Origin: Candidatus Cytomitobacter primus
GTDB lineage: Bacteria; Pseudomonadota; Alphaproteobacteria; CAJXXZ01; 1604HC
NCBI RefSeq assembly: GCF_008189405.1
Contig: NZ_CP043316.1
Coordinates: 558,258-622,257 of the forward strand
DNA: 64,000 nucleotides
Direction: 5' to 3'
Below are positions 5,037 through 30,945 of this stretch, piece after piece. Position 1 is the first letter of the stretch. The number at the start of each line of letters is the position of its first letter. The position numbers and the translations under genes are program-made. The notes under the pieces were generated by a model that made no database searches, was not told the DNA's origin, and saw only the letters and a program-made list of their open reading frames with translations.

Positions 5037-5771
5037 ATGATTAATAATAAGATAGAAAATTCTTTTTTGATGAATTGTTTCCAAGAATTTATAAATGAAG
5101 TATTAAAGTTTCGTGAATTAGTATTGTTTAATAAAACAAGCTCAAATGCTAAAGAAATACAGGAGACGTTAATCAGGTTTATTATTTATAAACGAGATTT
5201 AGCAATAGAAGAGGGCACATTAATAGAAGCAGGATATCATGAAACTTCATATATTATGGCTGTATTTGCAGATGAAATCTTCATCAATCTAGATTGGGTT
5301 CATAAAGATGATTGGAAGAAAAATAATTTAGAGACTCAAGTATTTGATACGCATATAGGTGGTAGAAAATTATTTGAGAATATTGATCGTTTCTTGGACT
5401 CTAATGCAACTTATAAATATGATATAGGAAGTGCATACTTGTTTTGCTTAGGTTTAGGTTTCCGTGGAAAATACAGAGGAATAGATGATCATAATACTAT
5501 ACAAAATTATAAAAATAAATTATTTGATATAATCAACAACTATGAATCTAATGTGAATGACAATAGCTTATTCCCACAGGCTAAACAACATACAATTGTA
5601 AAGATCTCTACAGCAAGAATGAGCAGTTATAAAGTATGGTCCATGATCCTTGGGATTACAGTGCTAATTTATGCAAGCTTCAGCTATCTTGTATGGTATA
5701 GATCTGTCAAAGAAATATCTACATTAATCGATATTAGCCAAAAAGATATAGAGAGTATTAAAAATGGATAA
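5037..5771 (+). CDS. tssL: type VI secretion membrane subunit TssL (DotU family)
   Basis: 244 aa. DotU signature blocks YIMAVFADEIFINLDW, IGGRKLFENIDRF, YLFCLGLGFRGKYRG. Single C-terminal TM helix (VWSMILGITVLIYASFSYLVWY). Overlaps tssM by 8 nt. Confidence 0.8.
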   Translation: MINNKIENSFLMNCFQEFINEVLKFRELVLFNKTSSNAKEIQETLIRFIIYKRDLAIEEGTLIEAGYHETSYIMAVFADEIFINLDWVHKDDWKKNNLETQVFDTHIGGRKLFENIDRFLDSNATYKYDIGSAYLFCLGLGFRGKYRGIDDHNTIQNYKNKLFDIINNYESNVNDNSLFPQAKQHTIVKISTARMSSYKVWSMILGITVLIYASFSYLVWYRSVKEISTLIDISQKDIESIKNG

Positions 5772-8700
5772 CTTATTAACTACATTTATTATTAGCATGG
5801 TATCTGCATCAACATTCATGCTTTTAAATAAATCATATGTGAAAATGCCAAAAATAATTGCTTTTTTACGTAAGCATATCAAAAGCTTTGCAAAGTATGT
5901 TGCAAATTTATTCAGATTCGAAGCAGTATTTGATGATAGAATAAATAAATCATTTGACCATAATATGCATATTTTGTACTCATTTTTAGGTAGTGAAAAT
6001 TTCAAATATAAGCTCCCATTTATAATGGTTATTGGATCTGAAAGATCTGGAAAATCTGCCATAATTAATAGCTTGAAATTAGAGCGTACAATTGATGATC
6101 TAACTGAAAAAAATGAATTTTGTAATTGGTCATTTTTCAATGATGCTGTATTTCTTGAGATGCATAGTGCATTATTTTCATCAGGAGATTCATATGTATC
6201 CTCAGATGCAAGTAATTGGAATAAATTATTAAACACACTATCTTACCATAGACCTGAACGACCAATTGATAGCTTAGTTCTAACTATTTCTATAGAAGAT
6301 ATTCTTGATCACTCTATTAATTTAAGCAATATTGCAGAGCATTATTATATCAAACTATGGAAAATGCAAAAAACATTCAAAGTGAATTTTCCTATTTATG
6401 TTGTCTTTACTCATACAGATTTGATTCCAGGATTTTCACACTTTGTGCATGCTATACAAGAAACCCTACAAGATGACATATTCGGATGGTCTAATCCACA
6501 TTCAGTTAATGCAATTGAAAATATAGAATTTATAGAAGATGGAATTGATCAAATTATTAATCGATTAATGTTAATACAACAAGAAATCATGGCAAAAGAA
6601 ATATCTTCAGAAAATGGAATGTTCGTCTTTCCATTTGAAATACATAAACTCAAGCAAAGATTATCAGAATTTATGTACTATATTTTTAAAAGAAATTCAC
6701 TACACGATCATTTTATGTTACGAGGCATTTATTTCACTGGATCATCAAAGCACAATGCATATGTAAACCATGAATTCTCACAATCATTACAAAGTGTAGA
6801 GTTTGGATCGATTGTTAAAGCATCTTCATTGCATACTTCAGATGATATATTATTTACTACTAATTTATTTACAGATAAGATATTCAAAGAAAAAGGACTT
6901 ACTTTCCCATTATCTGGAAATATACTTAATAATTCTGCGAAAGTTAGAATGCTACAATATTTAGTTGGCTCTGTAATAATAGGTGGAATTGTAAGCCTAA
7001 TCCACTATGATTTGAGAATGAACAAAGTAAAATCTGAATTAAAGCATAATATTTCTAATATTCGATTATCAATTCATAATGCAAAATTAATATATAAAGG
7101 GTCATATGATGAGTTAGATAATGCAATATTTGAAGAGCAGTCTATTAAAATAATTAATGCCATGAAGCAAATACACCCTAAAGATTTATTTTCATACTCT
7201 ATGCCACCATCCTGGTTTTCTTCGATCCAAAGCAGGTTGAACACTCTATTAGGCAGAGCATATAATACTGTTGTTTTCAGATTTATTATGAATAAATTTA
7301 ATAATGATCTGAAAATGCTTGTATCTGATTACACTAATGATAAAATATCATACAAAAAGAATTTTCACCCATTACATTCCCGTGAATTCATTGCACTAAA
7401 TTCATATATCACTAAAATTGCTAAATTAGAAAATATACACTATAAAATCAAACGAGTCCCACATCTAAGAAATATTAATGATGTAATATATATAATGAAG
7501 CATCTCCTAAATATAGATGTGAGCAAGAGCCTTATACATAATAAGCGTGTATTCCAAAATGCATTAAAACATGTGCAAGTTGATATTCACTCATTTGATT
7601 CATACAAGAAAAATATTCGCATTAAATCTACAGGATTATTTGATAAATTTATAAATCATGCATTAGAATATGATAAAGTAATTCCTAATATTACAAAAAT
7701 AGAAAGTATTCTAGAGCGTATTGAGCAAAAAGAGAATTACGATATAGAATCATTAACTTCTTATTTTAATCAACTAACATCTGTATTTAACAAACAAGAT
7801 TTGCTGTGGATATCTAGCAATAAATCCAAATTTGGTGAACAAATAAACCACATGCTATATAAAGCGCAGGATAGTAATGTTTTAGGCCTTAAAATTGCAC
7901 AAAACATGAAAGAAAAAATTGAATTAAAGATTAAACAGCTAAAGCAAAAAGTAGTCAAACATAGACTACCTATGATTGGTGTAATATTTCAAGATAATGA
8001 TAATGGACAATTAGATTTTTCTAAAGATTTTGCAGAATTCCAAGGAATGCTTAATTTACTTGCTGGACAAAGTTTTATGAAAAACACTGATTATAAGATC
8101 AATCCTGACCTAAAAAGTAATATAGTTAAATGGAATTTACTCAAACTGGCAGAAATTGTAAAAATAATTAATGAGTTCAATAAATTCTCCAGCCATAAGA
8201 TTCTGTATAAGCATGAAAAAATCACACATGCCATGGCAATGGTCACATGCAGTAGTGTCATTAAAAATATTAAATATAACCTAGTCAGTAGCCAAAGCCA
8301 ATTTGATAATCTTGAATCTGATAATACTTTATTATCTAATATTCATCAAAACCTTGATGAAGCAAACAAATATCTCATTAAAATTTTATTATTTGTCAAA
8401 AACCGAAACTCTAATCTATTTACAGAGCTAAAAAATGTTTTACAAAAGCAAAATATATTATTCTTAGAAAAGTTAGATCAATTACTACAAAAGAAAGATT
8501 TATATAATATTTCTAACTCTGATCTATATTTAAATGGCACAAAAGAAGATATCCAAGAATACATTGCAAAACAGCAGGAACAAATTAAATACCTATCAGA
8601 ACTTTCTATACCTTCTGTACAAATACTAAGCAAAATCTCAGATATAGGATTAAAAATCTACTCTCCTATATTAAATAAATGGTCTGAAATCAATGATGCA

Positions 8701-9591
8701 GTAGTAAGAAGCAAGGAAGGAAAAAGCAATCAAATCAAATCAATAGAGACACTGATAATTACGTCTATTTTGAATAAGAAAAACTGTGATTATATGATTG
8801 CAGATCTTGATCAAAATAGTACAAGCTATTTCGAAAGGAAAAAACATAGCATATTACTTTCTATGAGTAAAAAATGCTTATTTGATAATTATAATACAAT
8901 CAAAGTTCAATATAGAAAAATTGTACAATATTTTAATCAGTATATGGCACACAGATTTCCATTTAATAAGAGCGCTAATGTAGAGATCACACCTGAAGAA
9001 GCTAAGCAATTCTTAGCAATTTGGAATGAGAAATCAATGAATTTAGATCTACTATCACATTACTTGAAACCGAACCATGCATGGATTGCTTTCCTTAAAC
9101 GAACACAAAGTATAATCCCATGGCTAGAATCCATGATAGATGGCAAAAAACATCCAGGGTCATTTATGGTAACTCTGAGGACAAATCGTGATCAAGAAAA
9201 ACTTGGAGATCACATTGCTATTTGGGACCTAAAATTCGGAGATAAAACCATTCACATGAATATGGACCCACAAGAGATTGAACTTAAAAACTACAATATG
9301 CACAATATCTTGCGCTTATCTAAGGAAAGTAAGCACTCATTCGAAAATGGAAAATCCTATGAAGTTAAATATAATGGTTTCTTTGGAATCGTAAAATTAA
9401 TAAATAAATTCTGTGCAAATCACTGCAAACAAAATAAACAGCTTAGATTGAGCATTCCACTACTAAGTGAAAATAGTAATTTAACTGTATGGTGTGATAT
9501 TGAGCTAAAAGGGAAGCTAAAAGAATGGCCAACTTTCCCTAAGCAAGCCCCTAATTTCCCTAAAAGCGAGGTAAAATTATGCATCAATTAA
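5764..9591 (+). CDS. tssM: type VI secretion membrane subunit TssM (IcmF family)
   Basis: 1275 aa. N-terminal TM helix, then a P-loop (LPFIMVIGSERSGKSAIINSL) and a Walker-B-like IYVVFTHTD. A further TM helix near aa 400 (LVGSVIIGGIVSLIHY). Large periplasmic C-terminal region. Sits immediately after the DotU gene and overlaps tssA by 13 nt. Confidence 0.8.
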   Translation: MDNLLTTFIISMVSASTFMLLNKSYVKMPKIIAFLRKHIKSFAKYVANLFRFEAVFDDRINKSFDHNMHILYSFLGSENFKYKLPFIMVIGSERSGKSAIINSLKLERTIDDLTEKNEFCNWSFFNDAVFLEMHSALFSSGDSYVSSDASNWNKLLNTLSYHRPERPIDSLVLTISIEDILDHSINLSNIAEHYYIKLWKMQKTFKVNFPIYVVFTHTDLIPGFSHFVHAIQETLQDDIFGWSNPHSVNAIENIEFIEDGIDQIINRLMLIQQEIMAKEISSENGMFVFPFEIHKLKQRLSEFMYYIFKRNSLHDHFMLRGIYFTGSSKHNAYVNHEFSQSLQSVEFGSIVKASSLHTSDDILFTTNLFTDKIFKEKGLTFPLSGNILNNSAKVRMLQYLVGSVIIGGIVSLIHYDLRMNKVKSELKHNISNIRLSIHNAKLIYKGSYDELDNAIFEEQSIKIINAMKQIHPKDLFSYSMPPSWFSSIQSRLNTLLGRAYNTVVFRFIMNKFNNDLKMLVSDYTNDKISYKKNFHPLHSREFIALNSYITKIAKLENIHYKIKRVPHLRNINDVIYIMKHLLNIDVSKSLIHNKRVFQNALKHVQVDIHSFDSYKKNIRIKSTGLFDKFINHALEYDKVIPNITKIESILERIEQKENYDIESLTSYFNQLTSVFNKQDLLWISSNKSKFGEQINHMLYKAQDSNVLGLKIAQNMKEKIELKIKQLKQKVVKHRLPMIGVIFQDNDNGQLDFSKDFAEFQGMLNLLAGQSFMKNTDYKINPDLKSNIVKWNLLKLAEIVKIINEFNKFSSHKILYKHEKITHAMAMVTCSSVIKNIKYNLVSSQSQFDNLESDNTLLSNIHQNLDEANKYLIKILLFVKNRNSNLFTELKNVLQKQNILFLEKLDQLLQKKDLYNISNSDLYLNGTKEDIQEYIAKQQEQIKYLSELSIPSVQILSKISDIGLKIYSPILNKWSEINDAVVRSKEGKSNQIKSIETLIITSILNKKNCDYMIADLDQNSTSYFERKKHSILLSMSKKCLFDNYNTIKVQYRKIVQYFNQYMAHRFPFNKSANVEITPEEAKQFLAIWNEKSMNLDLLSHYLKPNHAWIAFLKRTQSIIPWLESMIDGKKHPGSFMVTLRTNRDQEKLGDHIAIWDLKFGDKTIHMNMDPQEIELKNYNMHNILRLSKESKHSFENGKSYEVKYNGFFGIVKLINKFCANHCKQNKQLRLSIPLLSENSNLTVWCDIELKGKLKEWPTFPKQAPNFPKSEVKLCIN

Positions 9592-10451
9592 TTGAAATCA
9601 AAAATGCACTCACTAATCCAATAGCAAACATAAGAAATTCCAATATATTTGTACAGCTAGAGACACTAGTTGAGCAACACAGCGATGATCTTCCTAAAGG
9701 GGATTGGTCTATATCTAATGATAAAAAAGATTGGACTAAAATATCTACACTTTGCTTAGAAATATTAGTTAATAATAGTAAAGATATACAAGTCATAATA
9801 TGGCTTATTGAGGCAAATATTCATTTACGTAAAGATGTAAAAGAATCATTTGAGATTCTTGAATATATTATTGATAATCACTGGGATATCCAAGATAAAG
9901 ACTTCGCATATAAGGCTTTTACTAACTTTGATAAAACATTAAATATAATGCTTCCTCAGTATTTTGCTTTATATAAAAATGACAATATCTATTACACTCT
10001 TGCAAGTTTCATACAGAATAAATCCATGACTGATTTTGAGAAGCTTACCACTCAGGAATACGAGTATTCGCTGGAATTAGCAAATATTATCCAATCTCTC
10101 AAAGAAAAAGCAAGTGCAAAGATGGATAATAATATGATGGCTAAATCCATTACTATTACACAGAATTTTATTCAGAAAGTTAGGAATATCATGCAGAATC
10201 AACATATACAAAATGATTCTATAAAACAAAATATAGAAACAGAATCTAACAATATAAACACGCATAATATTACATCACGCGAACAAGCATACCAAATGAT
10301 TCAGGAAATAATGCTATATTTGAAAACTCATGATCCACATAGTGCAACTCCATATTTATTGCAAAAAGCATATGAGTGGGAGAAAAAATCATTTGTAGAT
10401 ATCATGAATGACTTTAATGACCCTGTTATCATTCAAAAAATATTTCAATAG
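9579..10451 (+). CDS. tssA: TssA-like protein (ImpA N-terminal domain)
   Basis: 290 aa. ImpA_N-like block SKDIQVIIWLIEANIHLRKDVKESFEILEYIIDNHWDIQ. Last gene of the overlapping tssL-tssM operon. Shorter than canonical TssA. Confidence 0.6.
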   Translation: MHQLIEIKNALTNPIANIRNSNIFVQLETLVEQHSDDLPKGDWSISNDKKDWTKISTLCLEILVNNSKDIQVIIWLIEANIHLRKDVKESFEILEYIIDNHWDIQDKDFAYKAFTNFDKTLNIMLPQYFALYKNDNIYYTLASFIQNKSMTDFEKLTTQEYEYSLELANIIQSLKEKASAKMDNNMMAKSITITQNFIQKVRNIMQNQHIQNDSIKQNIETESNNINTHNITSREQAYQMIQEIMLYLKTHDPHSATPYLLQKAYEWEKKSFVDIMNDFNDPVIIQKIFQ

Positions 10452-10622: not shown

Positions 10623-12233
10623 ATGAAGAATCTAAGAATTTTATCACTGGTATTATGCTTATCAGTTATGGCAAATGGCCCAGAATTAACGGAATGCACA
10701 AGTAAGTTTGCATATTGTTTGAAGAGTCCTGGTCTCGCAACAGAAGATGCTGTGCAAACCAATCAAATGGAAAAATATACTCAAGCAATTTATGATGAGT
10801 ATAATCAATATGCATTAAGCATTATTCCAAGCTTGGAAGGCAAGAAGTTAAATGTAATTAATATGATGCAAATAGGATATGAAACAAACGAAGATGATGC
10901 AGAAGAACGAGCAGAATATATTAATGATTTAAATGAAGGATCACTGGAAGAATTATATGAAGGATTAACAGAAATTGAAGAACACACTATTCTGCGATAC
11001 GTTTATGAATCTCGTCCTTACATAATGAAGCAGAGTGCTCGCTATGCGGAGTTAGCAGATGCGTATGGTAATTATGACATGGATGGGGATGTATTCAAAA
11101 ATGCTGTGTATCTTGCTGACAGGTCTCAAAATGGAACATTAGAAGTTGATTGGGACTTAGAATCAGATAGGTTGGAAGCTCATAGTTTGTACTACAATTC
11201 AATATATGAGTACAACCTAGAAAATCCAGGATTATCGATGCTGAGCGATAAAGCGGAAGCAGCAAAGGTTAATGCAACTATTTTACAATCCCTATCAAAA
11301 GACAAGGAACATTTTACAAACATTGCAAAGCATATTGCGTTAAAGAAGATGGCAGTTGAGGCGGCAAAAGGCTTGGAGAAATTTAAAATCATGCTTGATG
11401 AGGTTGTTAGACAGGATGCATCTTGGAATGTAATTAGAACTGTCAAGGTAGGGAATGCTATGCAAAAGCATTTTAAGGAGGCTGATAAGTATGTTAGCTG
11501 CCAATCATGGATTCAAGTAACAGATGAAGGAAGTGGCATTGGAACTTATAGAACTATTTTTGGAAGTAAAGATAGAATAAAATTTGCTGAGATCATAGAT
11601 TTATTTAATACAGATAGAGCAAAATGCAAAGAAACTGTTTTGTGTAGATTTAGCAAAGGTTTAGAAAACTATAATAATGATTTTAATAGATTATTGCTAT
11701 ACCCAGATTTCAACATAAGATTTGATCAATTAACTGAGATGACTGTTAATGCACTAGAGGATATGTTAAATGCAATTATTAGGAGTAAGCTTTATTATAA
11801 AGTTGGAAATGGAGGAGGAGACCGAAAATTCCAAGCATATTATCCCGGGGAGGAGCGTAGAGGTGACGTTGAGTTTTTCAAGAAGGATTATGCTGACTGG
11901 TATGCAAAATCTGATGGAGACAAGGCTGTTACAGCATTAAGAAAAGAAGAAGCTGCTAAGCTTGCGAAGGAACGTGATCATGAGGATTATATCGTACACT
12001 TGTTTGACAGAGCAGAGGAATTGCTGAATGGATACGAAGGTGATAAGGACATGATGGGAGAGATCTTTGGAAACTTCTTGTTCTTAAGATGGGCAGAATA
12101 CAAGGAGAATGCTAGAGGGCGAGACTTCATGAACAGTGCAAAGGATGCATTAGAGGGCATGTTAAAACTGGAATCTTCAGACATTGAAAAACTAAATGCA
12201 ATCTCAAACGAAAAAATCAAATCCCTGCAATAA
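10623..12233 (+). CDS. secreted mosaic paralogue family protein, copy 1 (unknown function)
   Basis: 536 aa. Sec signal peptide MKNLRILSLVLCLSVMA|NGPEL. Conserved central block (LRYVYESRPYIMKQSARYAELADAYGNYDMDGDVF...) and conserved C-terminal block (YYPGEERRGDVEFFKKDYADWYAKSDGDK...) shared almost base-for-base with copies at 23735-25070 and 28899-30497. No recognisable domain. Confidence 0.85.
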   Translation: MKNLRILSLVLCLSVMANGPELTECTSKFAYCLKSPGLATEDAVQTNQMEKYTQAIYDEYNQYALSIIPSLEGKKLNVINMMQIGYETNEDDAEERAEYINDLNEGSLEELYEGLTEIEEHTILRYVYESRPYIMKQSARYAELADAYGNYDMDGDVFKNAVYLADRSQNGTLEVDWDLESDRLEAHSLYYNSIYEYNLENPGLSMLSDKAEAAKVNATILQSLSKDKEHFTNIAKHIALKKMAVEAAKGLEKFKIMLDEVVRQDASWNVIRTVKVGNAMQKHFKEADKYVSCQSWIQVTDEGSGIGTYRTIFGSKDRIKFAEIIDLFNTDRAKCKETVLCRFSKGLENYNNDFNRLLLYPDFNIRFDQLTEMTVNALEDMLNAIIRSKLYYKVGNGGGDRKFQAYYPGEERRGDVEFFKKDYADWYAKSDGDKAVTALRKEEAAKLAKERDHEDYIVHLFDRAEELLNGYEGDKDMMGEIFGNFLFLRWAEYKENARGRDFMNSAKDALEGMLKLESSDIEKLNAISNEKIKSLQ

Positions 12234-15271: not shown

Positions 15272-15439
15272 AAAATCTTTTCTTTTTAAATGCATTGAGT
15301 GCTTTAATTAGTATTTCATTATCATTGTTTTTTTATCTTTATCTTATTTATTTAATTTTAACTTTTAATTTTTAACCTGATAATGATTAATCATTATATT
15401 TCTATTACAATATGATTTTCTTTATGAAATAATAAAATT

Positions 15440-16628: not shown

Positions 16629-17021
16629 CTATTTAGGTTCATAATGTGTCCAATTAGAGAACATGCTATACGCTCTAATAATGTGTCCATCAGGATCTGA
16701 AACTGCAAAAGTACGACCATAACATTCATCAGTTGGTTTTTGCACAACTTTCACATCAAGCTCATTTTGCCATTTATCAAAAAACACATCTACATCTTCT
16801 GTAGATTTCACGTGGATTCCAATTTCAGAAAACCTTACAATAGAAGTGTCTGGAGTTCTGGTTCCTTCACATATTGCAAATGATGAGTCTGCACCAGCTG
16901 CAAATTCTACATAACCAGGGTTAGCAAATACAGGTTTAGCATCAAACAGCTTTTCATAAAAAGCAGTTGAAGATTCCATATTAGATACATAAATAATTTG
17001 TAAATTTGGTCTAATTGTCAT
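16629..17021 (-). CDS. glyoxalase/VOC family protein
   Basis: 130 aa. Paired beta-alpha-beta-beta-beta-like segments typical of lactoylglutathione lyase-like VOC proteins. Confidence 0.45.
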   Translation of the reverse strand: MTIRPNLQIIYVSNMESSTAFYEKLFDAKPVFANPGYVEFAAGADSSFAICEGTRTPDTSIVRFSEIGIHVKSTEDVDVFFDKWQNELDVKVVQKPTDECYGRTFAVSDPDGHIIRAYSMFSNWTHYEPK

Positions 17022-17168
17022 TAAATTTTTTCCTTTGAATTAGAAATAACACTAATTATACCTTTAAACAAGAGTGCTAAATGTGCAAATAATTGCTTTT
17101 CCTCATGGCAAAACATATTCCATTTTAACTAGATATGCATGAATATTCATTATTATATATAGATGCAT

Positions 17169-17879: not shown

Positions 17880-17901
17880 ATTTTAACATCGATCAGATTA
17901 T

Positions 17902-20369: not shown

Positions 20370-20476
20370 TAAATATGGTTAAATTATATGATATCTGTAT
20401 AGTGAATTTAACTTAATTTTTGCTCAATAATACATTAAGGGCTTGATTAACCCAAAATTTATGGTAGATTAGTACC

Positions 20477-22150: not shown

Positions 22151-22236
22151 TAGACACGCTGAGCAGTGAAGAATCTGATGAAAGTGAAGAACTTGATGAA
22201 GATATAGAAAATATACAATTTCTAAAAAATGAGCTA

Positions 22237-23241
22237 ATGGTAAATGGAAATAGTATTGGAAATCTTTATGTTGTACGTGGTTGCACAAAAGTAGTACTTA
22301 ATGATATAAAATTGACAGGAAATAAGTTAAGTATTCTGGATAAAATTATTAGTATAAATGAGTTAAGATATCTTGATTTAGTGAATTGTGCTTTGACCAA
22401 GGCTTTACCTAATATATTTACTTTACAACTATTAGAATGCCTATCTTTATCTAATAACAACTTATCAGAAATTGTAATAGCAAAAAAAACACTACCATGT
22501 TTAAGAAAGCTTGATTTATCTCGTAATAATTTATCAAAATTCAGTTGTAGGTTTCTACGACAAATAGAAGATTTGGATTTAAGTAGAAATAAAATTAGTG
22601 ACCTTAAATATATAAAAAATATGAAAAATCTAGTTTCTTTAAATATAGCTAATAATAATATAGATCAATTAGATGATATTGGCGATTTAGTTAATATAGA
22701 AATACTTAACTTTGTAAATAATCGTATTTCAAAATTACCATGCTTAGATGCTCTGCAAAAATTACGTGGATATTATGCACGTAATAATAGGTTTGCATGC
22801 ATAGAAGAAACTTTCAAACCTATTCATAATATAATTTGTAGGAAAGTTCCAATAGGCGTAATATATAATCCAGATACTATGAGATATGTTGTGAAATATG
22901 GTTATCATCATACAATGAATGATGCTCTATATTACCTTCCCTATGAGATGCATATTTGTGGTGGGGATGGAAAAGAATATGATGCAATAGAGAAAGTCTC
23001 ACATACCGATGACGATAAGATATCTAAATTCAAAAAAGAATATAGAGTTGGAATTCCCAATTATAATTCTAAACATAGAATGCAAATACATGGAAATGTA
23101 GATAAAGGGATATATGATTTCATTAGTCATTATGTAACTGTGGATTGTGTGTATTGTGAAGTCAGTAGTACTAATAGACCCCCATCTAATTATGAAGATA
23201 ATTTTCAAAACATGCAGAGATGCGCATGCTATGGCTATTAG
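22237..23241 (+). CDS. leucine-rich repeat protein, C-terminal part
   Basis: 334 aa. Tandem LRRs (LDLSRNNLSKF, LDLSRNKISDLKYIKNMKNLVSLNIANNNIDQL). Its reading frame is open upstream to at least 22141, which suggests it was originally fused to the 20477-22150 ORF. Confidence 0.6.
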   Translation: MVNGNSIGNLYVVRGCTKVVLNDIKLTGNKLSILDKIISINELRYLDLVNCALTKALPNIFTLQLLECLSLSNNNLSEIVIAKKTLPCLRKLDLSRNNLSKFSCRFLRQIEDLDLSRNKISDLKYIKNMKNLVSLNIANNNIDQLDDIGDLVNIEILNFVNNRISKLPCLDALQKLRGYYARNNRFACIEETFKPIHNIICRKVPIGVIYNPDTMRYVVKYGYHHTMNDALYYLPYEMHICGGDGKEYDAIEKVSHTDDDKISKFKKEYRVGIPNYNSKHRMQIHGNVDKGIYDFISHYVTVDCVYCEVSSTNRPPSNYEDNFQNMQRCACYGY

Positions 23242-23689
23242 ATTTGTTTATCATTAGTAATTATGCATCTTGATATTTATTCGTAATGTTTTTTATTATG
23301 CCTTATAATACCATTTTCAATTAATAAATTAAACTTAAGTTACTTTGAATCGCAATCATTTATACCAGAAGATTAGATTAACTATATAAAAATATTAGAT
23401 CTTTGAAGCAGTTGGTTGAAAGGTTTATACATATAATAAGATCATAGTTAGTTAGGATAGCAATGAGAGAAGGGAATTATTTCTACTGCTAATAGTTATG
23501 ACCATTTGATGTTATGACAATATATATCATCATAAGGTAAATGGATGGGATGAATAATTTAGAATATCTATACATTATGCTGCTTCGATTGCCTAAAAAT
23601 GTATTTTCAATAATCTCAATTAATAAATCATAGTATTATATACTATTATAAACTAATCCTATATATCAATAACGTAATAACATTTTTCT

Positions 23690-24241
23690 TAATATTATAT
23701 AGGTTTGTTAAGTTTATGGATTAATACAGACACATTATTGCAGGGATTTGATTTTTTCGTTTGAGATTGCATTTAGTTTCTCAATGTCTGAAGATTCTAG
23801 TTTTAACATGCCCTCTAATGCGTCCTTTGCACTGTTCATGAAGTCTCGCCCTCTAGCATTCTCCTTGTATTCTGCCCATCTTAAGAACAAGAAGTTTCCA
23901 AAGATCTCTCCCATCATGTCCTTATCACCTTCGTATCCATTCAGCAATTCCTCTGCTCTGTCAAACAAGTGTACGATATAATCCTCATGATCACGTTCCT
24001 TCGCAAGCTTAGCAGCTTCTTCTTTTCTTAATGCTGTAACAGCCTTGTCTCCATCAGATTTTGCATACCAGTCAGCATAATCCTTCTTGAAAAACTCAAC
24101 GTCACCTCTACGCTCCTCCCCGGGATAATATGCTTGGAATTTTCGGTCTCCTCCTCCATTTCCAACTTTATAATAAAGCTTACTCCTAATAATTGCATTT
24201 AACATACTTATCAGCCTCCTTAAAATGCTTTTGCATAGCAT
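23690..24241 (-). repeat. conserved 3' block of the paralogue family, copy 2
   Basis: Reverse complement is near-identical to 11761-12290. Confidence 0.8.
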
Positions 24242-25070
24242 TCCCTACCTTGACAGTTCTAATTACATTCCAAGATGCATCCTGTCTAACAACCTCATCA
24301 AGCATGATTTTAAATTTCTCCAAGCCTTTTGCCGCCTCAACTGCCATCTTCTTTAACGCAATATGCTTTGCAATGTTTGTAAAATGTTCCTTGTCTTTTG
24401 ATAGGGATTGTAAAATAGTTGCATTAACCTTTGCTGCTTCCGCTTTATCGCTCAGCATCGATAATCCTGGATTTTCTAGGTTGTACTCATATATTGAATT
24501 GTAGTACAAACTATGAGCTTCCAACCTATCTGATTCTAAGTCCCAATCAACTTCTAATGTTCCATTTTGAGACCTGTCAGCAAGATATACAGCATTTTTG
24601 AATACATCACCATCCATGTCATAGTTACCATACGCATCTGCTAACTCCGCATAGCGAGTACTCTGCTTCATTATGTAAGAACGGGACTCATAAACGTATC
24701 GCAACATGGCATATTCAGTAGCTTGCTCATCCTTTAAATTATTTAGTTGTTCTTGCAACTCTTCTTCACTATATTTAGATAATGATTCTATGTATTCATC
24801 TTCATCATCTTGGTTAATCATTTGCATATATACGATTGATTTACACTTATTATCTGTAAGATCTTTAACAACTTCTTTAGTTCCATCAAGTACAGTTTGA
24901 TAAAACTCATCATCTCTACATTCTAAATTAGATTCCTCCAGCTCTATTGCTAAAGATTGATCAGATTTCTTCAAACAATATGCAAATTTACTTGTGCATT
25001 CCGTTAATTCTGGGCCATTTGCCATAACTGATAAGCATAATACCAGCGATAAAATTCTTAGATTCTTCAT
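23735..25070 (-). pseudogene. paralogue family copy 2, disrupted by an internal deletion of ~100 codons plus a frameshift
   Basis: Two overlapping ORFs in different frames. The 294-aa N-terminal part (signal peptide plus central block) ends at 24186 with KEADKYVKCNY. The 168-aa C-terminal block begins at 24241 with MLNAIIRSKLYYKVGNGGG. The region homologous to copy 1 aa ~292-395 is missing. Confidence 0.7.
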
Positions 25071-25093
25071 ATATCTCCCTTATAAATTGATTT

Positions 25094-25122
25094 ATTATGT
25101 TATATTTACACCTAAATAACAA
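25094..25122 (-). promoter_or_regulatory. sigma70-like promoter TTGTTA-N17-CATAAT of family copy 2 (reverse strand)
   Basis: Reverse complement of 25071-25150 is identical to 10543-10622, including the RBS AAGGGAG. Confidence 0.45.
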
Positions 25123-25217
25123 GAGATTTTGCAGGAAAACCTACCTGAAATAGGCATAATTTATATAATATTTAGGTAGCAATCTTATAGAGTGTACTAT
25201 TTCTAATAATAATTATC

Positions 25218-25763
25218 CTAATCGAATATTTCTTCTTTTATCACTTTCCCACCCATATCAAACTGCTTCCATATTCCTGATTTATTTCCATCTATGTATT
25301 GTCCAAATTCTAGAATATTAGATGATTTTGGGTGATATGTAATAGAATTTCCGTAAAGTAAATCATCTTTATAATTCTCTTCTTTGACTAAATACCCTTT
25401 TCCAAATATGAAAAATGCTCCATGTTTTTTATTATCCTTATATGCTCCTATTTGCGATAAATTACGATTCTCAAATATATACATAGCGCCATCTGGTTTT
25501 TCACCCTTATAGTTCATGATCAAACTTAATTCACCATTTTTATAAATTTCTACAACTCCATCAATTTTCCCATCTTTATAATTGACTCTTTGTGCAATGG
25601 ATCCATTTTTATAATATATGCTCTCTCCATTTCGCACGCCATCTTTCAATATATGCTTCTCAACAACTTTTCCATCAATCACAACTTCTTCAAATTGTTG
25701 CTCTGGAATTTCTTCAGTTTTACAGTTCAATTCATGCTTTTTTATAATCTGCTCAATATTCAT
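25218..25763 (-). CDS. MORN-repeat (MORN_2 / YwqK-like) protein, translationally coupled to vgrG
   Basis: 181 aa. Repeated YKNG/YKDGK/YKGEKPDG units. Its ATG shares one nucleotide with the vgrG stop (TAATG). Confidence 0.6.
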   Translation of the reverse strand: MNIEQIIKKHELNCKTEEIPEQQFEEVVIDGKVVEKHILKDGVRNGESIYYKNGSIAQRVNYKDGKIDGVVEIYKNGELSLIMNYKGEKPDGAMYIFENRNLSQIGAYKDNKKHGAFFIFGKGYLVKEENYKDDLLYGNSITYHPKSSNILEFGQYIDGNKSGIWKQFDMGGKVIKEEIFD

Positions 25764-28700
25764 TAGTTTAAATTCACCATTCCTGCTTTTATATTAATCA
25801 TTGCTGATGCTTCAATATCTGCTGTTGTATCACTTTTTAGCGCCACAATTCCTCCTTTTAAGTTTAAATTACCCCCAGCTTCCAAAGTTAGGTTTCCTCC
25901 AGATTTAATTGTAAAATTGCTAGATGCCTTATATGTAATCTGATTTGCTTCAATTTCCATATTTCCTCCTGAGATTTTGATAGTATGATTTCCACTATTA
26001 ATCGTTATATCTTTGTTCCCGGAAATTTCTTCTTTACTATTACCATTCCCTAGATTTATTTCCATATTCCCTTTAGAAATTTCGATATTCATATTTCCAT
26101 CCTGAAGTGTAATTTCTTTATTTCCCTTGTTTAAATCTAATTTATAATTACCTTCCTCAATTTTCGTAATCATATCTCCATTTTTGAGCTCAGTGAGGAA
26201 ATGCTTCGCTTCCTCTGATTCTAATTTAATCTCTTTGTTCCCTTTTTTGATGATTAATATATCATTTCCTTCTCCATCTGTAGGTTCATCTTCCCCAGAC
26301 AATTCTACCTTTCGATCTCCACGCCCAATAATCAATTCTGAAGATCCAGTTTGAATTGTAGAGCTTTTACCATCTTTAATAATTTCCTCATAATCTTTCT
26401 CAGCATGCAAAAATATTTTTTCTTCATTTGCTTTGTCCTCAAAGCTAAATTCATTGAATCCACGCTCTTCGCCTTCTTCAACATCTTTTAGCGATTCTGT
26501 TTTTAGGCCAGTTTTCGAAATAACATCTTCAGTTTCAACCAGATTATACGGTGGCATTGTAGTTCTATTATATAAGCACCCTGTAATAATTGGGTAATTT
26601 GGATTCCCATTTTCGAATGAAATTACAACTTCTTGCCCTATACGAGGAACAAAAAATCCTCCCCATTCATTTCCAGCGCCTCCCCATTGCGCAACACGAA
26701 TCCATACAGCTTGCTGCAGCATCTCTCCATTACTCAAATTCTTTCTCCCATTATCCCAATGGAAATAAACTTTCACTTGCCCTAGGTGATTTGTATAGAT
26801 TTTCTGATCCTCTCCACCAACAACAATTCCTGTCTGAATTCCTGCAATTTTCCTGTATGGCTCAGGTTTGACTTTAAATGGTTGATCAATTTTCGAAAAC
26901 ACGGCGCTATTTTCATAGTGTAAAACCATATCATCCAAATCTACAGTAGCATCATCCATATTTTTATCCACAGCCTGATATTCTAATTTATGAGAAACTC
27001 GCTTTACATAATACTGCCCATTCATCTCAATATCTGGGTGATGCGTAAGAACAAACTTGTATCCAGGGCTAACTTCCTGACGAAAAGTTTTTGTATGATA
27101 TTCTGTCTCACTTGTATCTGCATGTTGATTGCATATTCCATTATATTCTTTCACTTTTTGATCTGAGGTAAATGTTTCGCTATAATGATCATCCACATCG
27201 CTAGCAGAACTCTCTGATGAATTTGCCCCAGAGGAATTTTCAACTTCATGAATTATATTGCGCTTTTCAGGGTCAAGATCTGGGTTGAATCCTTGAAGTT
27301 GGGTGGAATTAGGGGCATATTTATGTGCAACATTCCATTGCGAGATATATTTATCGTTACGACCCTCCAATCCAGTTGTTGTATAATGCAAAGGACGAGA
27401 ATCGGTGAATGGGTCGGACATATCAAAAACTTTTGAAACAGCTCCATCTTCTACAGCCCCTTTCCCCTTAGATTGCGATTCAGCAACAATTTGCGTGTCA
27501 AAACCATCGTCGAAAATACTCATTTCTCCACTTTGTACGGAAGTATAGGCGTTCGCTCCTTTGGAGGCTAACTCTCCTGTGGGGCTATAGTTTTCAATGG
27601 CATTTTCATACCCTAAATATGTTTTATATGGCGAGGGAGATGAGGAAGCAGAAGGAGAAACACTACCTGATTCATCAGCAATTTCTGCACCATCTCCAGA
27701 ATTAAACCCAGCCAAATCATCTTCCTCTTCCTCGTCATCCGCATCATAGTTAGCATCTGCACTATCTGACACATCTGCTCCCTGAGGATTATTATAAAAC
27801 ACAATCCCTGTATGCACGTCCGTATGCTCAAAACAATAATAAACCCCAAAATCCCTACACAACCGATTCAATAACTCCCAATCCGTCTCCTCATACTGCA
27901 CTATATATTCAGGAAAATCCTCCTGTTCACTCTTAGCAAAATTTGTCTGATCATCATAATTCAAATATTTACTCCTTGGATTCTCAATCGCAGCCATACG
28001 ATATTGTGCATCCAAAATACTCATATTAATATCAATAATTACCTTATCATAATGATTATCATGCTGGTCATTCTTTGCCTCAAATTCATCTATTTGAATT
28101 TCATAATCATCTGATTGTGATTCATAATTTCCATGTATGGCAACTAATTCTGAAGTTCTATCTTTTGATTTTTCATCTTTTAAAGTTATATTATTTTTCT
28201 TTATTAATCTTTCAATAATATTTGCCATTAATTTTGACTTGTTAAATATGATATCTTGATTTTGCTCAACTGGTGCGTCATCTACAGATGGATAGAAAAT
28301 ACGATTACGTTTTGTGCCTAATTTAAATTGCATTTCAGGAATCATGCTAAACCCATAAACATAATATTGCTCTTCCTTAGTTGGGGTTTTTATTCCTAAA
28401 TATGTCCATTCATTGATTATTCCATGCCAATATTTTCTATCAATATTTGGCTTGCCAACACTTAAGCCCATGTGCATTTTTTTACTAATCATATTTGGTT
28501 TTTTCTCAAAAAATGCAACTTCTCCTTGAATAAAGAATGGTTGAGATAACCCTTCCTCTATATTAACTTTATAAACTCTCCCTAAATGACGTTTATATCT
28601 TCTATCTTCATCAGTTTTAGGTTGCCATTGATCATAACCTAAGGTCGCTAATCCAATCATTTCAAAATCAGAATTATCTTCAACCTTTTGGTTATGCTTA

Positions 28701-28768
28701 TAAGTATTATTATAATCTTCTTCTAAGGTATAATCTTTTTTTTCGAGCTCTTCAGGCATTTGAGACAA
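25763..28768 (-). CDS. vgrG: type VI secretion spike protein VgrG
   Basis: 1001 aa. gp5-like OB-fold block VAQWGGAGNEWGGFFVPRIGQEVVISFENGNPNYPIITGCLYN. C-terminal beta-helix repeats (SGNKDITINSGNHTIKISGGNMEIEANQITYK...). Acidic low-complexity insert (DADDEEEEDDLAGFNSGDGAE...). Confidence 0.85.
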   Translation of the reverse strand: MSQMPEELEKKDYTLEEDYNNTYKHNQKVEDNSDFEMIGLATLGYDQWQPKTDEDRRYKRHLGRVYKVNIEEGLSQPFFIQGEVAFFEKKPNMISKKMHMGLSVGKPNIDRKYWHGIINEWTYLGIKTPTKEEQYYVYGFSMIPEMQFKLGTKRNRIFYPSVDDAPVEQNQDIIFNKSKLMANIIERLIKKNNITLKDEKSKDRTSELVAIHGNYESQSDDYEIQIDEFEAKNDQHDNHYDKVIIDINMSILDAQYRMAAIENPRSKYLNYDDQTNFAKSEQEDFPEYIVQYEETDWELLNRLCRDFGVYYCFEHTDVHTGIVFYNNPQGADVSDSADANYDADDEEEEDDLAGFNSGDGAEIADESGSVSPSASSSPSPYKTYLGYENAIENYSPTGELASKGANAYTSVQSGEMSIFDDGFDTQIVAESQSKGKGAVEDGAVSKVFDMSDPFTDSRPLHYTTTGLEGRNDKYISQWNVAHKYAPNSTQLQGFNPDLDPEKRNIIHEVENSSGANSSESSASDVDDHYSETFTSDQKVKEYNGICNQHADTSETEYHTKTFRQEVSPGYKFVLTHHPDIEMNGQYYVKRVSHKLEYQAVDKNMDDATVDLDDMVLHYENSAVFSKIDQPFKVKPEPYRKIAGIQTGIVVGGEDQKIYTNHLGQVKVYFHWDNGRKNLSNGEMLQQAVWIRVAQWGGAGNEWGGFFVPRIGQEVVISFENGNPNYPIITGCLYNRTTMPPYNLVETEDVISKTGLKTESLKDVEEGEERGFNEFSFEDKANEEKIFLHAEKDYEEIIKDGKSSTIQTGSSELIIGRGDRKVELSGEDEPTDGEGNDILIIKKGNKEIKLESEEAKHFLTELKNGDMITKIEEGNYKLDLNKGNKEITLQDGNMNIEISKGNMEINLGNGNSKEEISGNKDITINSGNHTIKISGGNMEIEANQITYKASSNFTIKSGGNLTLEAGGNLNLKGGIVALKSDTTADIEASAMINIKAGMVNLN

Positions 28769-28846
28769 TATATGAGATGATGGTTAATATTCTCTTAAAA
28801 TTATGCTGGGCTTTCCTACAATTTATTAATAAACACCACATAAATC

Positions 28847-28875
28847 TTGTTATTTAAGGATAGATGGAACATAAT
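28847..28875 (+). promoter_or_regulatory. sigma70-like promoter TTGTTA-N17-CATAAT of family copy 3, followed by RBS AAGGGAG
   Basis: Same hexamers and spacing as copies 1 and 2. Divergent from the vgrG promoter region. Confidence 0.45.
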
Positions 28876-28898
28876 AAGTCAATTTATAAGGGAGATAT

Positions 28899-30497
28899 AT
28901 GAAGAATCTAAAAATCTTATCATTACTATTATGTTTATCAGTTATGGCAAATGGCCCAGAATTAACGGAATGTACAAGTAAGTTTGCGTATTGTTTGAAG
29001 AGTCCTGGTCGCGCAACGGAAGTTGCTGTGCCAAATATGGGTGCACAGGTTCTCACTGATGCCGTATATAAAAAGAGATACGATATAGTAAAGGGTGCAA
29101 TTCCATCAATAGATGAAGAGAAGTGCAAATATCTTGTATATACAATGATTATTAATAGAAAAAGCAAACCAGAATATGTTAAGAAAATAGGTGAGAATAC
29201 AGTTGAGCAATTGTTTGCAGGTTTATCCAATGCGGATAAATCATATGCCATGCTGCGATACGTTTATGAATCTCGTCCTTACATAATGAAGCAGAGTGCT
29301 CGCTATGCGGAGTTAGCAGATGCGTATGGTAACTATGACATGGATGGGGATGTGTTCAAGAATGCTATGTATTTGGCAGAGAGATCTCAAAATGGAACCT
29401 TAGAAGTTGATTGGGACTTAGAGTCAGATAGGCTAGAAGCTCATAGTTTGTATTATAACTCGATATATGAGTACAACCTAGAAAATCCAGGATTATCGAT
29501 GATTAGTGACAAAGCAGAAGCAGCAAAGGTTAATGCAACTATTTTACAATCCCTATCAAAAGACAAGGAACATTTTACAAACATTGCAAAGCATATTGCA
29601 TTAAAGAAGATGGCAGTTGAGGCAGCTAAGGGGTTAGAGAAATTTAAAATCATGCTTGATGAGGTTGTAAGGCAGGATGCGTCTTGGAATATGGTTCATA
29701 TAGTTCAGATGAACAAGGCTGCACAAAAGCATTTTAAAGATACTCAACTTTATTTAGATGATTTGGTAGGCGTAGAAATAACTATGTCAGATCTGAGATC
29801 AATTAAGAATGTCCAAGGTGGATATGTAGTTATTTTTGGCGATAAAGACAAAGTAAAATTTGATGAGATTATAGAATTATTTAATACAGATAGGGAAAAA
29901 TGCAAAGAGCTTATTTGGGAAAGAATAGTAGCGGGAGAAGAATATATAAACAAATATATAGTGAAGCCTATGTTTGATAAGCTCTTTAATGAGATGGAAA
30001 AGATGGACAAAGAAGTATTGCAAGAGGTAATAAATAGATCACGTAAAGAGAAAGTTTGGGGTGAAGTAGGAAATAGGGGAGGAGGAAAGAAGTTTCGCGC
30101 ATACTACCCAGGAGAGGAGCGTCGAGGTGACGTTGAGTTCTTCAAGAAGGATTATGCTGACTGGTATGCAAAATCTGATGGAGACAAGGCTGTTACAGCA
30201 TTAAGAAAAGAGGAAGCTGCTAAGCTTGCGAAGGAGCGTGATCATGAGGATTATATCGTACACTTGTTTGACAGAGCAGAGGAATTGCTGAATGGGTACG
30301 AAGGTGATAAGGACGTCATGGGAGAGATCTTTGGAAACTTCTTGTTCTTAAGATGGGCAGAATACAAAGAGAATGCTAGAGGGCGAGACTTCATGAACAG
30401 TGCAAAGGATGCCCTAGAAGGTATGTTAAAACTAGAATCTTCAGACATTGAGAAACTAAATGCAATCTCAAACGAAAAAATCAAATCCCTGCAATAA
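28899..30497 (+). CDS. secreted mosaic paralogue family protein, copy 3
   Basis: 532 aa. Same signal peptide, central block and C-terminal block as copy 1. The V1 and V2 cassettes are divergent but recognisably homologous. Confidence 0.85.
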   Translation: MKNLKILSLLLCLSVMANGPELTECTSKFAYCLKSPGRATEVAVPNMGAQVLTDAVYKKRYDIVKGAIPSIDEEKCKYLVYTMIINRKSKPEYVKKIGENTVEQLFAGLSNADKSYAMLRYVYESRPYIMKQSARYAELADAYGNYDMDGDVFKNAMYLAERSQNGTLEVDWDLESDRLEAHSLYYNSIYEYNLENPGLSMISDKAEAAKVNATILQSLSKDKEHFTNIAKHIALKKMAVEAAKGLEKFKIMLDEVVRQDASWNMVHIVQMNKAAQKHFKDTQLYLDDLVGVEITMSDLRSIKNVQGGYVVIFGDKDKVKFDEIIELFNTDREKCKELIWERIVAGEEYINKYIVKPMFDKLFNEMEKMDKEVLQEVINRSRKEKVWGEVGNRGGGKKFRAYYPGEERRGDVEFFKKDYADWYAKSDGDKAVTALRKEEAAKLAKERDHEDYIVHLFDRAEELLNGYEGDKDVMGEIFGNFLFLRWAEYKENARGRDFMNSAKDALEGMLKLESSDIEKLNAISNEKIKSLQ

Positions 30498-30510
30498 TGT
30501 GTCTGTTTTG
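30040..30510 (+). repeat. conserved 3' block of the paralogue family, copy 3
   Basis: Highly similar to 11800-12245. Encodes the same YYPGEERRGDVEFFKKDYADWYAKSDGDK...KIKSLQ tail. Confidence 0.75.
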
Positions 30511-30945
30511 ATGTGAGTTCAATTGCTAAGAGAGATTGATAATCAAGCGCCTATTTTACAGCAATATATATTATCAAAATCGTTTGTTTGCATAATTAAT
30601 CATATTTTTATAAAACTAATTTGCCTCAAATTTATATAATAATCTATCAATATAGAATTACAAATTAAGCATAGAACAATAAAGCAAGTTGATAGTATTG
30701 ATATACATTATAGATTAGTACAATGGAAGGTCTCTAATATAATTTTTGATTATGACTATTAGCATATTACCAATATGTTTGGCCATGAATAAATTATAGC
30801 TAATATATCAATGATTATCATAATTTTAATATTATATGAAATTATTAGCATATATTCACAAGTATATAACAGATTTATACAAATACGATATTAAATTATT
30901 ACTTAACTGTACATGAAAATATTACTATAAAAAGCATTGCTTCAA

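What the first reader, a model, noticed from the sequence alone, without database searches (positions are those of the whole stretch)
25218..28768. VgrG with acidic insert, translationally coupled to a MORN-repeat protein
The VgrG stop and the ATG of a 181-aa MORN_2 / YwqK-like repeat protein share a nucleotide (TAATG). That position is usually held by a VgrG-specific adaptor, effector or immunity protein. MORN/YwqK repeats are known from antitoxin-like proteins and membrane-binding modules, not from established T6SS adaptor classes (DUF4123, DUF1795, DUF2169). VgrG also carries an unusual Asp/Glu/Ser-rich insert between the gp27-like and gp5-like parts.
Basis: partly seen in the sequence, partly recalled or inferred. 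Interest (0 to 1): 0.6.

Follow-up and report, generated by a model that had tools for sequence, protein, structure and literature searches.

The report
VgrG spike with TseF-like MORN partner
In the tiny genome of a protist endosymbiont, the type VI secretion spike gene overlaps a small MORN-repeat gene; the pair is real and already published, and it most resembles a known spike-bound secreted effector (TseF) rather than the "antitoxin" it is annotated as.

Summary
The window is from Candidatus Cytomitobacter primus. vgrG (25763-28768, minus strand) and a 181-aa MORN-repeat gene (25218-25763) share one base (TAATG). This overlap is conserved in four related lineages.

The adjacency is not new. 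George et al. 2019 reported a YwqK protein next to VgrG in these endosymbionts, and Midha et al. 2021 list [ywqK-vgrG] as a conserved unit in related Holosporales families. Both call the MORN protein an immunity protein, without a test.

That label fits poorly:
- The VgrG has no toxin domain and ends like an ordinary VgrG.
- The MORN protein evolves as slowly as core T6SS parts.
- The only characterised VgrG-adjacent MORN protein, Pseudomonas aeruginosa TseF, is secreted and binds VgrG.

I found vgrG→MORN_2→DUF4280 in six proteobacterial loci, including the TseF locus. The best reading is therefore a TseF-like spike-bound cargo. Family membership is unproven: there is no specific sequence affinity, no neighbouring DUF4280 gene, and the VgrG sits on a separate branch.

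The acidic insert is real but lies inside the gp27-like module.

The new points are in the surroundings. Inverted, mosaic paralogs of an orphan signal-peptide protein flank the pair, and two assemblies differ by an inversion between such paralogs.

The parts
25763..28768 (-). vgrG (tssI), 1001 aa from TTG (998 aa from the ATG at 28759). It is a canonical spike protein with clade-specific inserts and no C-terminal toxin domain.
   Evidence: Pfam and NCBIfam hits above cut-off. The C-terminus aligns with the ends of canonical VgrGs.
27416..27781 (-). Asp/Glu/Ser/Gly/Pro-rich, poorly conserved insert (residues ~330-451; acidic core ~328-380) inside the gp27-like module.
   Evidence: Absent from canonical VgrGs and variable in length among orthologues. 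Composition and charge. Profile coordinates.
26189..26293 (-). Clade-specific insert in the beta-helix (residues ~826-860, GNDILIIKKGNKEIKLESEEAKHFLTELKNGD). It is a candidate docking site (inference only).
   Evidence: 83% invariant across the three full-length VgrGs of coupled lineages compared, but only 13% identical to the MAG, where MORN is uncoupled. Absent from canonical VgrGs.
25761..25765 (-). TAATG stop/start overlap between vgrG and the MORN gene.
   Evidence: Read directly from the sequence. Conserved in four lineages.
25218..25763 (-). 181-aa MORN_2-repeat protein with no signal peptide. It has a conserved N-terminal helix motif followed by a sheet of seven beta-hairpins. It is annotated in public records as a YwqK-family antitoxin.
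28899..30497 (+). Intact paralog (532 aa) of an orphan all-alpha protein with a Sec-type N-terminal signal sequence (the 'SP family'). It is transcribed divergently from vgrG.
   Evidence: No Pfam or NCBIfam hit. Only one relative beyond itself among 1.84 billion representative proteins. Inverted repeat reported.
23735..25070 (-). Disrupted SP-family paralog (294-aa and 168-aa ORFs; 265 nt missing) downstream of the MORN gene. It is intact (535 aa) in assembly OX638200.1.
10623..12233 (+). Third SP-family paralog (536 aa), directly after tssL-tssM-tssA.
5037..10451 (+). tssL (DotU, 5037-5771), tssM (IcmF, 5764-9591) and tssA (ImpA_N, 9579-10451).
   Evidence: Pfam hits.

Best explanation
The 181-aa protein is a TseF-like, VgrG-associated MORN-repeat cargo protein.

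Proposed mechanism:
1. It is made together with VgrG from one transcript, through the conserved one-base stop/start overlap.
2. It docks non-covalently on the VgrG trimer.
3. It leaves the bacterium with the spike when the T6SS fires. In this cytoplasmic endosymbiont, that delivers it into the host cell.
4. There, its flat MORN beta-sheet binds a conserved ligand, either a host protein or a membrane component.

The 'YwqK antitoxin' name is a label transferred at the domain level. It is not evidence of an immunity function.

Shown here: the gene anatomy, the MORN fold, conserved linkage and coupling with vgrG, the slow evolutionary rate, and the lack of a toxin domain on VgrG.

Inferred by analogy with TseF: binding to VgrG, secretion, and a host target.
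For: 1. The overlap with vgrG is conserved in four lineages. In the fifth, the gene is still 1.5 kb from vgrG.
2. The fold is a high-confidence MORN sheet with no enzymatic or adaptor domain.
3. TseF is a 178-aa MORN protein encoded directly after vgrG3. It is secreted in an H3-T6SS-dependent manner and binds VgrG3. Its homologues mostly co-localise with VgrG (PMC5379069).
4. I found vgrG→MORN_2 at gaps of 1-11 nt in six loci: Azospirillum (two), P. aeruginosa H3, Cupriavidus and Paraburkholderia (two). In contrast, none of 52 generic MORN_2 loci examined holds a VgrG.
5. The VgrG has no toxin domain that an immunity protein would neutralise.
6. MORN identity between C. primus and C. indipagum is 67%. 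That matches TssL (64%) and TssM (66%), is above VgrG (55%), and is far above the flanking SP proteins (26%). This is not the pattern of a fast-changing effector-immunity pair.
7. The gene is retained in ~560-630-kb genomes.
Against: - Sequence gives no specific affinity to TseF. TseF-like proteins score 56-59 bits against the Cytomitobacter profile, within the range of generic MORN_2 proteins.
- The DUF4280 PAAR-like gene that accompanies all six TseF-type loci was not found in the window or in the related loci.
- The VgrGs of the TseF-type loci form their own clade, and the Cytomitobacter VgrGs sit on a separate long branch. The pairing may therefore be convergent.
- TseF's known ligand, PQS, is irrelevant in this organism.
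- George et al. report no recognisable Hcp or TssJ, so firing of this T6SS is itself unproven.
- No interaction or secretion data exist for this protein.
Confidence: 0.45

Rival explanations
1. Non-secreted adaptor or chaperone. The MORN protein bridges VgrG and a cargo encoded next door (the SP-family protein) and stays behind in the bacterium.
For: The gene order vgrG→MORN→SP in OX638200.1 and in the 622-kb relative matches the usual vgrG-adaptor-effector layout. In the MAG, MORN follows the SP gene instead of vgrG. A third SP copy follows tssA. SP, vgrG and MORN are linked in all four complete genomes examined. The slow evolution of MORN beside fast-evolving SP proteins fits an adaptor and its cargo.
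Against: SP proteins begin with a Sec-type signal sequence (read from the sequence), which is not expected of T6SS cargo. The MORN fold matches no known adaptor class. The one characterised analogue, TseF, is itself secreted.
Confidence: 0.2
2. Assembly or stability factor for this unusual VgrG. The protein would cap or chaperone a spike that carries several large inserts, and would have no role outside the cell.
For: Translational coupling suggests fixed stoichiometry with VgrG. The protein is conserved at the rate of core components. A clade-specific beta-helix insert is highly conserved in the lineages where the genes are coupled.
Against: Ordinary VgrGs without such inserts also carry a MORN_2 gene downstream. 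The insert correlation rests on a single uncoupled lineage, which is also the most divergent one.
Confidence: 0.15
3. Immunity protein or antitoxin of a VgrG 'effector', as stated in the literature and in the public annotation (YwqK family).
For: MORN_2 is the repeat found in Bacillus subtilis YwqK. NCBI names the protein a YwqK-family antitoxin. George et al. and Midha et al. interpret it this way.
Against: No toxin partner is present. The VgrG ends as canonical VgrGs do and has no extra domain, and the neighbouring genes have no toxin domains. The same 'antitoxin' label is attached to the gene at the position of P. aeruginosa tseF, which is an experimentally secreted effector. The conservation pattern is unlike that of effector-immunity pairs.
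Confidence: 0.08
4. No functional link. The adjacency is an accident of genome compaction.
For: Overlapping genes are common in reduced genomes (general knowledge).
Against: The linkage is kept in five lineages despite local rearrangements. The literature reports it in related Holosporales families. It recurs independently in Beta- and Gammaproteobacteria.
Confidence: 0.03

Closest known systems
TseF (PA2374), the MORN-motif effector of the Pseudomonas aeruginosa H3-T6SS (Lin et al. 2017, PMC5379069)
   Same: Size is about the same (178 vs 181 aa). Both consist only of MORN_2 repeats and have no signal peptide. Both genes lie directly downstream of vgrG on the same strand. Public annotation calls both 'YwqK family antitoxin'.
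   Different: There is no sequence affinity beyond the shared repeat. No adjacent DUF4280 gene was found. The VgrG belongs to a different clade. TseF's ligand PQS and its receptors FptA and OprF do not apply here. Secretion and VgrG binding are untested for this protein.
The vgrG-MORN_2-DUF4280 trio in Azospirillum, Cupriavidus and Paraburkholderia (P. phymatum T6SS-b: Bphy_5985-5987, PMC8356804)
   Same: A MORN_2 gene sits tightly after vgrG.
   Different: Those loci always add a PAAR-like DUF4280 gene and sit inside full T6SS clusters. Here the pair is isolated from other T6SS genes and is flanked by SP-family paralogs.
YwqK antitoxin of the Bacillus subtilis YwqJ/YwqK toxin-immunity pair
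   Same: The MORN_2 repeat type, which is the source of the public name.
   Different: There is no YwqJ-like or any other toxin domain in the locus.
T6SS adaptors and chaperones: Tap-1/Tec (DUF4123), Eag (DUF1795), DUF2169
   Same: The position next to vgrG and, in some genomes, between vgrG and a possible cargo gene.
   Different: The fold is unrelated and no domain hit was found.
Published description of this same locus (George et al. 2019, 10.1101/719211; Midha et al. 2021, PMC8163844)
   Same: The same gene pair. The [ywqK-vgrG] unit is reported as conserved in related Holosporales families.
   Different: Those papers call it an effector-immunity pair without a test. They do not mention TseF, the flanking SP-family repeats or the inversion.

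Membership tests
TseF-like VgrG-associated MORN_2 cargo | Small protein built only of MORN_2 repeats, without a signal peptide | tested here: met
   The model has pLDDT 93 and a 14-strand MORN sheet. Foldseek matches MORN1, radial-spoke proteins and junctophilin. TseF itself scores 55 bits on MORN_2. The window protein is below the Pfam threshold (19.8 bits).
TseF-like VgrG-associated MORN_2 cargo | Gene immediately downstream of vgrG on the same strand | tested here: met
   One-base overlap, conserved in four lineages.
TseF-like VgrG-associated MORN_2 cargo | Sequence similarity to TseF-type proteins above that to generic MORN_2 proteins | tested here: not met
   Against the Cytomitobacter profile, TseF-type proteins score 56-59 bits, inside the generic range of 55-71 bits.
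TseF-like VgrG-associated MORN_2 cargo | Neighbouring DUF4280 (PAAR-like) gene, seen in 6 of 6 TseF-type loci | tested here: not met
   tblastn found no hit better than E = 1.6 in the 64-kb window or in loci L001, L002, L003 and L013. The rest of the genome was not searched.
TseF-like VgrG-associated MORN_2 cargo | Cognate VgrG belongs to the same VgrG clade | tested here: not met
   In a neighbour-joining tree on 603 columns, the MORN-linked VgrGs form one clade and the Cytomitobacter VgrGs form a separate long branch.
TseF-like VgrG-associated MORN_2 cargo | T6SS-dependent secretion and direct binding to VgrG | not testable with these tools
   This needs pull-down or secretion assays, or multimer modelling.
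YwqK-type antitoxin / T6SS immunity protein | Cognate toxin encoded adjacently or fused to VgrG | tested here: not met
   The VgrG has only gp27, gp5 and beta-helix parts and ends like canonical VgrGs. The neighbouring genes have no known domains.
YwqK-type antitoxin / T6SS immunity protein | Neutralises the toxin | not testable with these tools
   This needs co-expression toxicity assays.
Known T6SS adaptors (DUF4123, DUF1795/Eag, DUF2169) | Adaptor domain or fold | tested here: not met
   No Pfam hit. No adaptor structure among the Foldseek matches.
VgrG / TssI | gp27-like hub, gp5 OB fold and gp5 C-terminal trimerisation beta-helix | tested here: met
   Phage_GPD, Phage_base_V and Gp5_trimer_C, plus TIGR03361 at 278 bits against a cut-off of 186.
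Evolved (effector-carrying) VgrG | C-terminal extension carrying an effector domain | tested here: not met
   The C-terminus (...VNLN) aligns with the ends of 620-664-aa canonical VgrGs. Residues 881-995 match only the beta-helix of the Francisella VgrG.

The most novel reading that the evidence does not exclude
The real unit may be a four-gene cassette, SP-vgrG-MORN-SP. Inverted, mosaic paralogs of an orphan signal-peptide protein bracket the spike genes. Each paralog pair has a hypervariable block at about nt 90-400 between blocks that are (near-)identical. Recombination between the paralogs would both homogenise them and flip intervening DNA, which would give a minimal endosymbiont a way to vary exported host-facing proteins. 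The slowly evolving MORN protein would be the constant spike-bound partner delivered to the host.
Probability: 0.15. Interest if true: 0.6.

Novelty: new member of a known kind. Interest (0 to 1): 0.3.

Why it matters
Holosporales endosymbionts keep a T6SS even in genomes of ~600 kb, and what that system delivers is unknown. If the protein encoded beside vgrG is a secreted TseF-like cargo rather than an antitoxin, it becomes the first concrete candidate for a host-directed T6SS substrate in this group. The published argument that shared 'immunity proteins' allow two endosymbionts to co-infect one host would then lose its basis. There is also a practical point: automatic annotation labels the gene at the position of the experimentally secreted effector TseF as 'YwqK family antitoxin', so that name should not be read as a function in T6SS loci.

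Tried and rejected
- **Scan of species-representative genomes with the MORN alignment**. It found only C. indipagum and one MAG as close relatives. Nesciobacter and Sneabacter were not reached, so the statement about them rests on the paper alone.
- **Metagenome scan**. It returned 40 loci, all generic MORN_2 (36% identity or less, apart from one 65-residue match at 44%), and none had a VgrG.
- **tblastn of the MORN protein against plasmids**. Most hits lay in unrelated contexts, but one led to the Azospirillum locus.
- **AlphaFold model of the SP protein** from a three-sequence alignment. Mean pLDDT was 44, so it was unusable for fold search.
- **Exhaustive HMMER search with the SP protein.** It found only one relative besides the query itself. 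There were no Pfam, NCBIfam or PDB sequence hits.
- **Foldseek against AFDB50.** The library was not available.
- **Promoter and terminator scan.** Counts were no higher than in shuffled sequence.
- **Test of whether the closest alphaproteobacterial VgrGs carry a MORN gene.** They carry DUF6931 in that slot instead.
- **TeoL of Cupriavidus necator** (PMC8776902). It is also encoded downstream of a vgrG and was considered as a second analogue. The paper does not describe MORN repeats and I had no sequence, so this stays an untested lead.
- **Complex modelling of VgrG with the MORN protein.** The tools offered do not allow it.
Full report
**Source and anatomy**

The exact 181-aa protein occurs in Candidatus Cytomitobacter primus. 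This is a Holosporales endosymbiont of the diplonemid Diplonema japonicum with a 622-kb genome.

- On the minus strand, 25763-28768 encodes a VgrG. It is 1001 aa from a TTG start; an in-frame ATG lies at 28759, and the public gene call is 998 aa.
- 25218-25763 encodes a 181-aa protein.
- Reverse-complementing 25761-25765 gives TAATG, so the stop and start codons share base 25763.
- tssL, tssM and tssA lie 15 kb away at 5037-10451.

**The VgrG**

Phage_GPD, Phage_base_V, Gp5_trimer_C and TIGR03361 all score above their cut-offs. I aligned it with three orthologues and three canonical VgrGs. The Cytomitobacter clade carries several lineage-specific inserts:

- an N-terminal extension;
- about 115 aa at residues 168-285;
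- the Asp/Glu/Ser/Gly/Pro-rich segment at about 330-451, whose acidic core reaches a net charge of -14 in 30 aa;
- a Ser-rich segment near residue 510;
- about 50 aa within the beta-helix.

The acidic segment interrupts the gp27-like module. The Phage_GPD match stops at profile position 190 of 305, and TIGR03361 resumes at residue 454. It therefore does not lie between gp27 and gp5. It is variable in sequence and length among orthologues, as a disordered loop would be (inference).

The protein ends (...VNLN) exactly where short canonical VgrGs end. Residues 881-995 resemble only the beta-helix of the Francisella VgrG. So there is no effector domain, and this is not an 'evolved' VgrG.

**The 181-aa protein**

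The Pfam MORN_2 score is below threshold (19.8 bits against a cut-off of 29.6), but orthologues carry PF07661.

An AlphaFold model built on a 40-sequence alignment has pLDDT 93. It shows a single-layer sheet of 14 strands (residues 23-180), preceded by a short, low-confidence helix. The motif in that helix, I-x-x-I-I-K...C14, is conserved among orthologues.

The best PDB matches are apicomplexan and trypanosome MORN1, radial-spoke MORN proteins, SET7/9 and junctophilin. No T6SS adaptor appears among the matches. The N-terminus is hydrophilic, so there is no signal peptide (read from the sequence).

**Relatives**

The orthologue group is very small: C. indipagum (67% identity), a Logan contig (62%), a 622-kb genome from ERZ25333236 (56%) and the MAG CP060235.1 (54%). 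Scores then fall from 234 bits to 71 bits, which is generic MORN_2.

- In four lineages the vgrG stop overlaps the MORN start by one base.
- In the MAG, the MORN gene instead follows a 441-aa signal-peptide gene and lies 1.5 kb from a divergently transcribed vgrG.
- No lineage has the MORN gene away from vgrG.

Identity between C. primus and C. indipagum is 67% for MORN, 64% for TssL, 66% for TssM (N-terminal part), 55% for VgrG and 26% for the flanking SP proteins. MORN thus evolves like a core component.

**What was already known**

George et al. state that a YwqK-family 'immunity protein' lies next to VgrG in all diplonemid endosymbionts (10.1101/719211). Midha et al. list [ywqK-vgrG] as one of four conserved T6SS gene units in the related Holosporales families Bodocaedibacteraceae, Paracaedibacteraceae and Caedimonadaceae (PMC8163844). 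The adjacency is therefore published. The immunity reading in those papers rests on the annotation name alone.

**The closest characterised analogue**

A weak plasmid hit led to Azospirillum sp. TSH58, where tssG-clpV-vgrG is followed one base later by a 225-aa MORN_2 gene and then a convergent DUF4280 (PAAR-like) gene.

Searching with that protein found the same trio, vgrG-MORN_2-DUF4280, in five more loci:

- Azospirillum B510;
- Cupriavidus sp. P-10;
- Paraburkholderia phymatum pBPHY01, matching Bphy_5985-5987 (PMC8356804);
- Paraburkholderia sp. PGU19;
- a P. aeruginosa record whose gene order is that of the H3-T6SS end.

In the P. aeruginosa record, the 178-aa gene after tssI is annotated 'YwqK family antitoxin'. 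By size and position this is TseF (PA2374).

Lin et al. describe TseF as a 178-aa protein with MORN motifs, next to vgrG3. It is secreted in a clpV3-, hsiB3C3- and hcp3-dependent way and is pulled down with VgrG3 and VgrG1b. Its homologues mostly co-localise with VgrG (PMC5379069).

By contrast, none of 52 generic MORN_2 loci fetched here holds a VgrG.

**Membership versus mechanism**

Three tests argue against filing the protein as a TseF family member:

- By sequence, the Cytomitobacter proteins are no closer to TseF-type proteins than to generic MORN_2 proteins.
- No DUF4280 gene is present in the window or in the related loci.
- The VgrGs linked to TseF-type genes form one clade, while the Cytomitobacter VgrGs sit on a separate long branch with no specific affinity to it.

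In addition, the plasmid-borne alphaproteobacterial VgrGs that score highest against this one carry DUF6931 in the downstream slot.

I therefore do not file the protein as a TseF family member. I propose that it works like TseF, as a VgrG-bound MORN cargo. The pairing may be ancestral or convergent.

**Mechanism and rivals**

| Reading | Confidence |
|---|---|
| Co-translated, spike-bound cargo delivered to the host cytosol | 0.45 |
| Non-secreted adaptor for the neighbouring SP protein | 0.2 |
| Assembly factor for the insert-laden VgrG | 0.15 |
| Immunity protein | 0.08 |
| Accidental adjacency | 0.03 |

- The adaptor reading is supported by the gene order vgrG→MORN→SP in two genomes and SP→MORN in the MAG. 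It is weakened by the Sec-type signal sequence of the SP proteins.
- The immunity reading is disfavoured because no toxin partner exists.
- One hint toward a docking site is a beta-helix insert at residues ~826-860. It is 83% invariant across the three full-length VgrGs of coupled lineages compared, but only 13% identical to the MAG. This rests on a single contrast, so it is no more than a lead.
- George et al. found no Hcp or TssJ, so firing of this T6SS is itself unproven.

**Surroundings**

The pair is bracketed by an inverted repeat, 23720-25124 against 28845-30512 (87-93% complementary). The repeat is made of paralogs of a ~530-aa protein with a Sec-type signal sequence. This family has no Pfam, NCBIfam or PDB match and only one relative beyond the query among 1.84 billion representative proteins.

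- A third copy follows tssA.
- Inverted pairs also flank vgrG-MORN in the 622-kb relative and in C. indipagum.
- Within each genome the paralogs are mosaics. Blocks at or near 100% nucleotide identity (about 90-100% for one C. primus pair) alternate with blocks of 40-50% identity, including a shared hypervariable block at about nt 90-400.
- Assembly OX638200.1 has window segment ~12281-23687 inverted, with the breakpoints inside these paralogs, and all of its copies are intact. In the window, the copy next to MORN lacks 265 nt. I cannot tell whether this is a real inversion or an assembly error.

**Verdict**

The object is best described as a divergent member of a known kind: a VgrG with a TseF-like MORN partner. 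Interest is modest. It lies mainly in correcting the 'antitoxin' reading and in the flanking repeat structure.

Noticed in passing
window 23720-25124 and 28845-30512; also 10623-12233: Three paralogs of an orphan ~530-aa all-alpha protein with a Sec-type signal sequence. Two form an inverted repeat around vgrG-MORN and one follows tssA. Paralog pairs in three species are nucleotide mosaics: blocks at or near 100% identity (about 90-100% in one C. primus pair) alternate with blocks of 40-50%, and a hypervariable block lies at about nt 90-400.
   Followed up: partly
window ~12281-23687, compared with L001 and L070 (OX638200.1): A second assembly of the same species is 99.9-100% identical but has this 11.4-kb segment inverted, with breakpoints inside the SP paralogs. 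There all SP copies are intact. In the window, the copy at 23735-25070 lacks 265 nt and is split into 294-aa and 168-aa ORFs. This could be a real inversion or an assembly artefact.
   Followed up: partly
L002 13799-14404 (C. indipagum): A 201-aa ORF that is 46% identical to VgrG residues 40-181 lies beside the second SP paralog on the opposite strand. It is a remnant of a duplicated SP-vgrG unit.
   Followed up: no
L063 6956-7492 (P. aeruginosa NZ_CP137515.1): The gene at the position of tseF (an experimentally secreted effector) is annotated 'toxin-antitoxin system YwqK family antitoxin'. The record is labelled a plasmid but carries the H3-T6SS end and its neighbouring genes.
   Followed up: partly
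L017, L061-L065: In six proteobacterial loci a DUF4280 (PAAR-like) gene always directly follows the VgrG-linked MORN_2 gene, in either orientation. This suggests a three-part spike module.
   Followed up: partly
L066-L069: In Rhodobacterales and Aureimonas T6SS clusters, the slot directly after vgrG holds a ~200-aa DUF6931 protein, followed by PAAR or tssA.
   Followed up: no
window 18657-23241: A secretin gene (18657-20369) and two leucine-rich-repeat protein genes (20477-22150 and 22237-23241) lie between the T6SS genes and the vgrG cassette, inside the invertible segment.
   Followed up: no
window 26189-26293 (VgrG residues ~826-860): A clade-specific insert in the spike beta-helix is among the most conserved parts of the protein in lineages where MORN overlaps vgrG. 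It is largely replaced in the MAG, where the two genes are uncoupled.
   Followed up: partly
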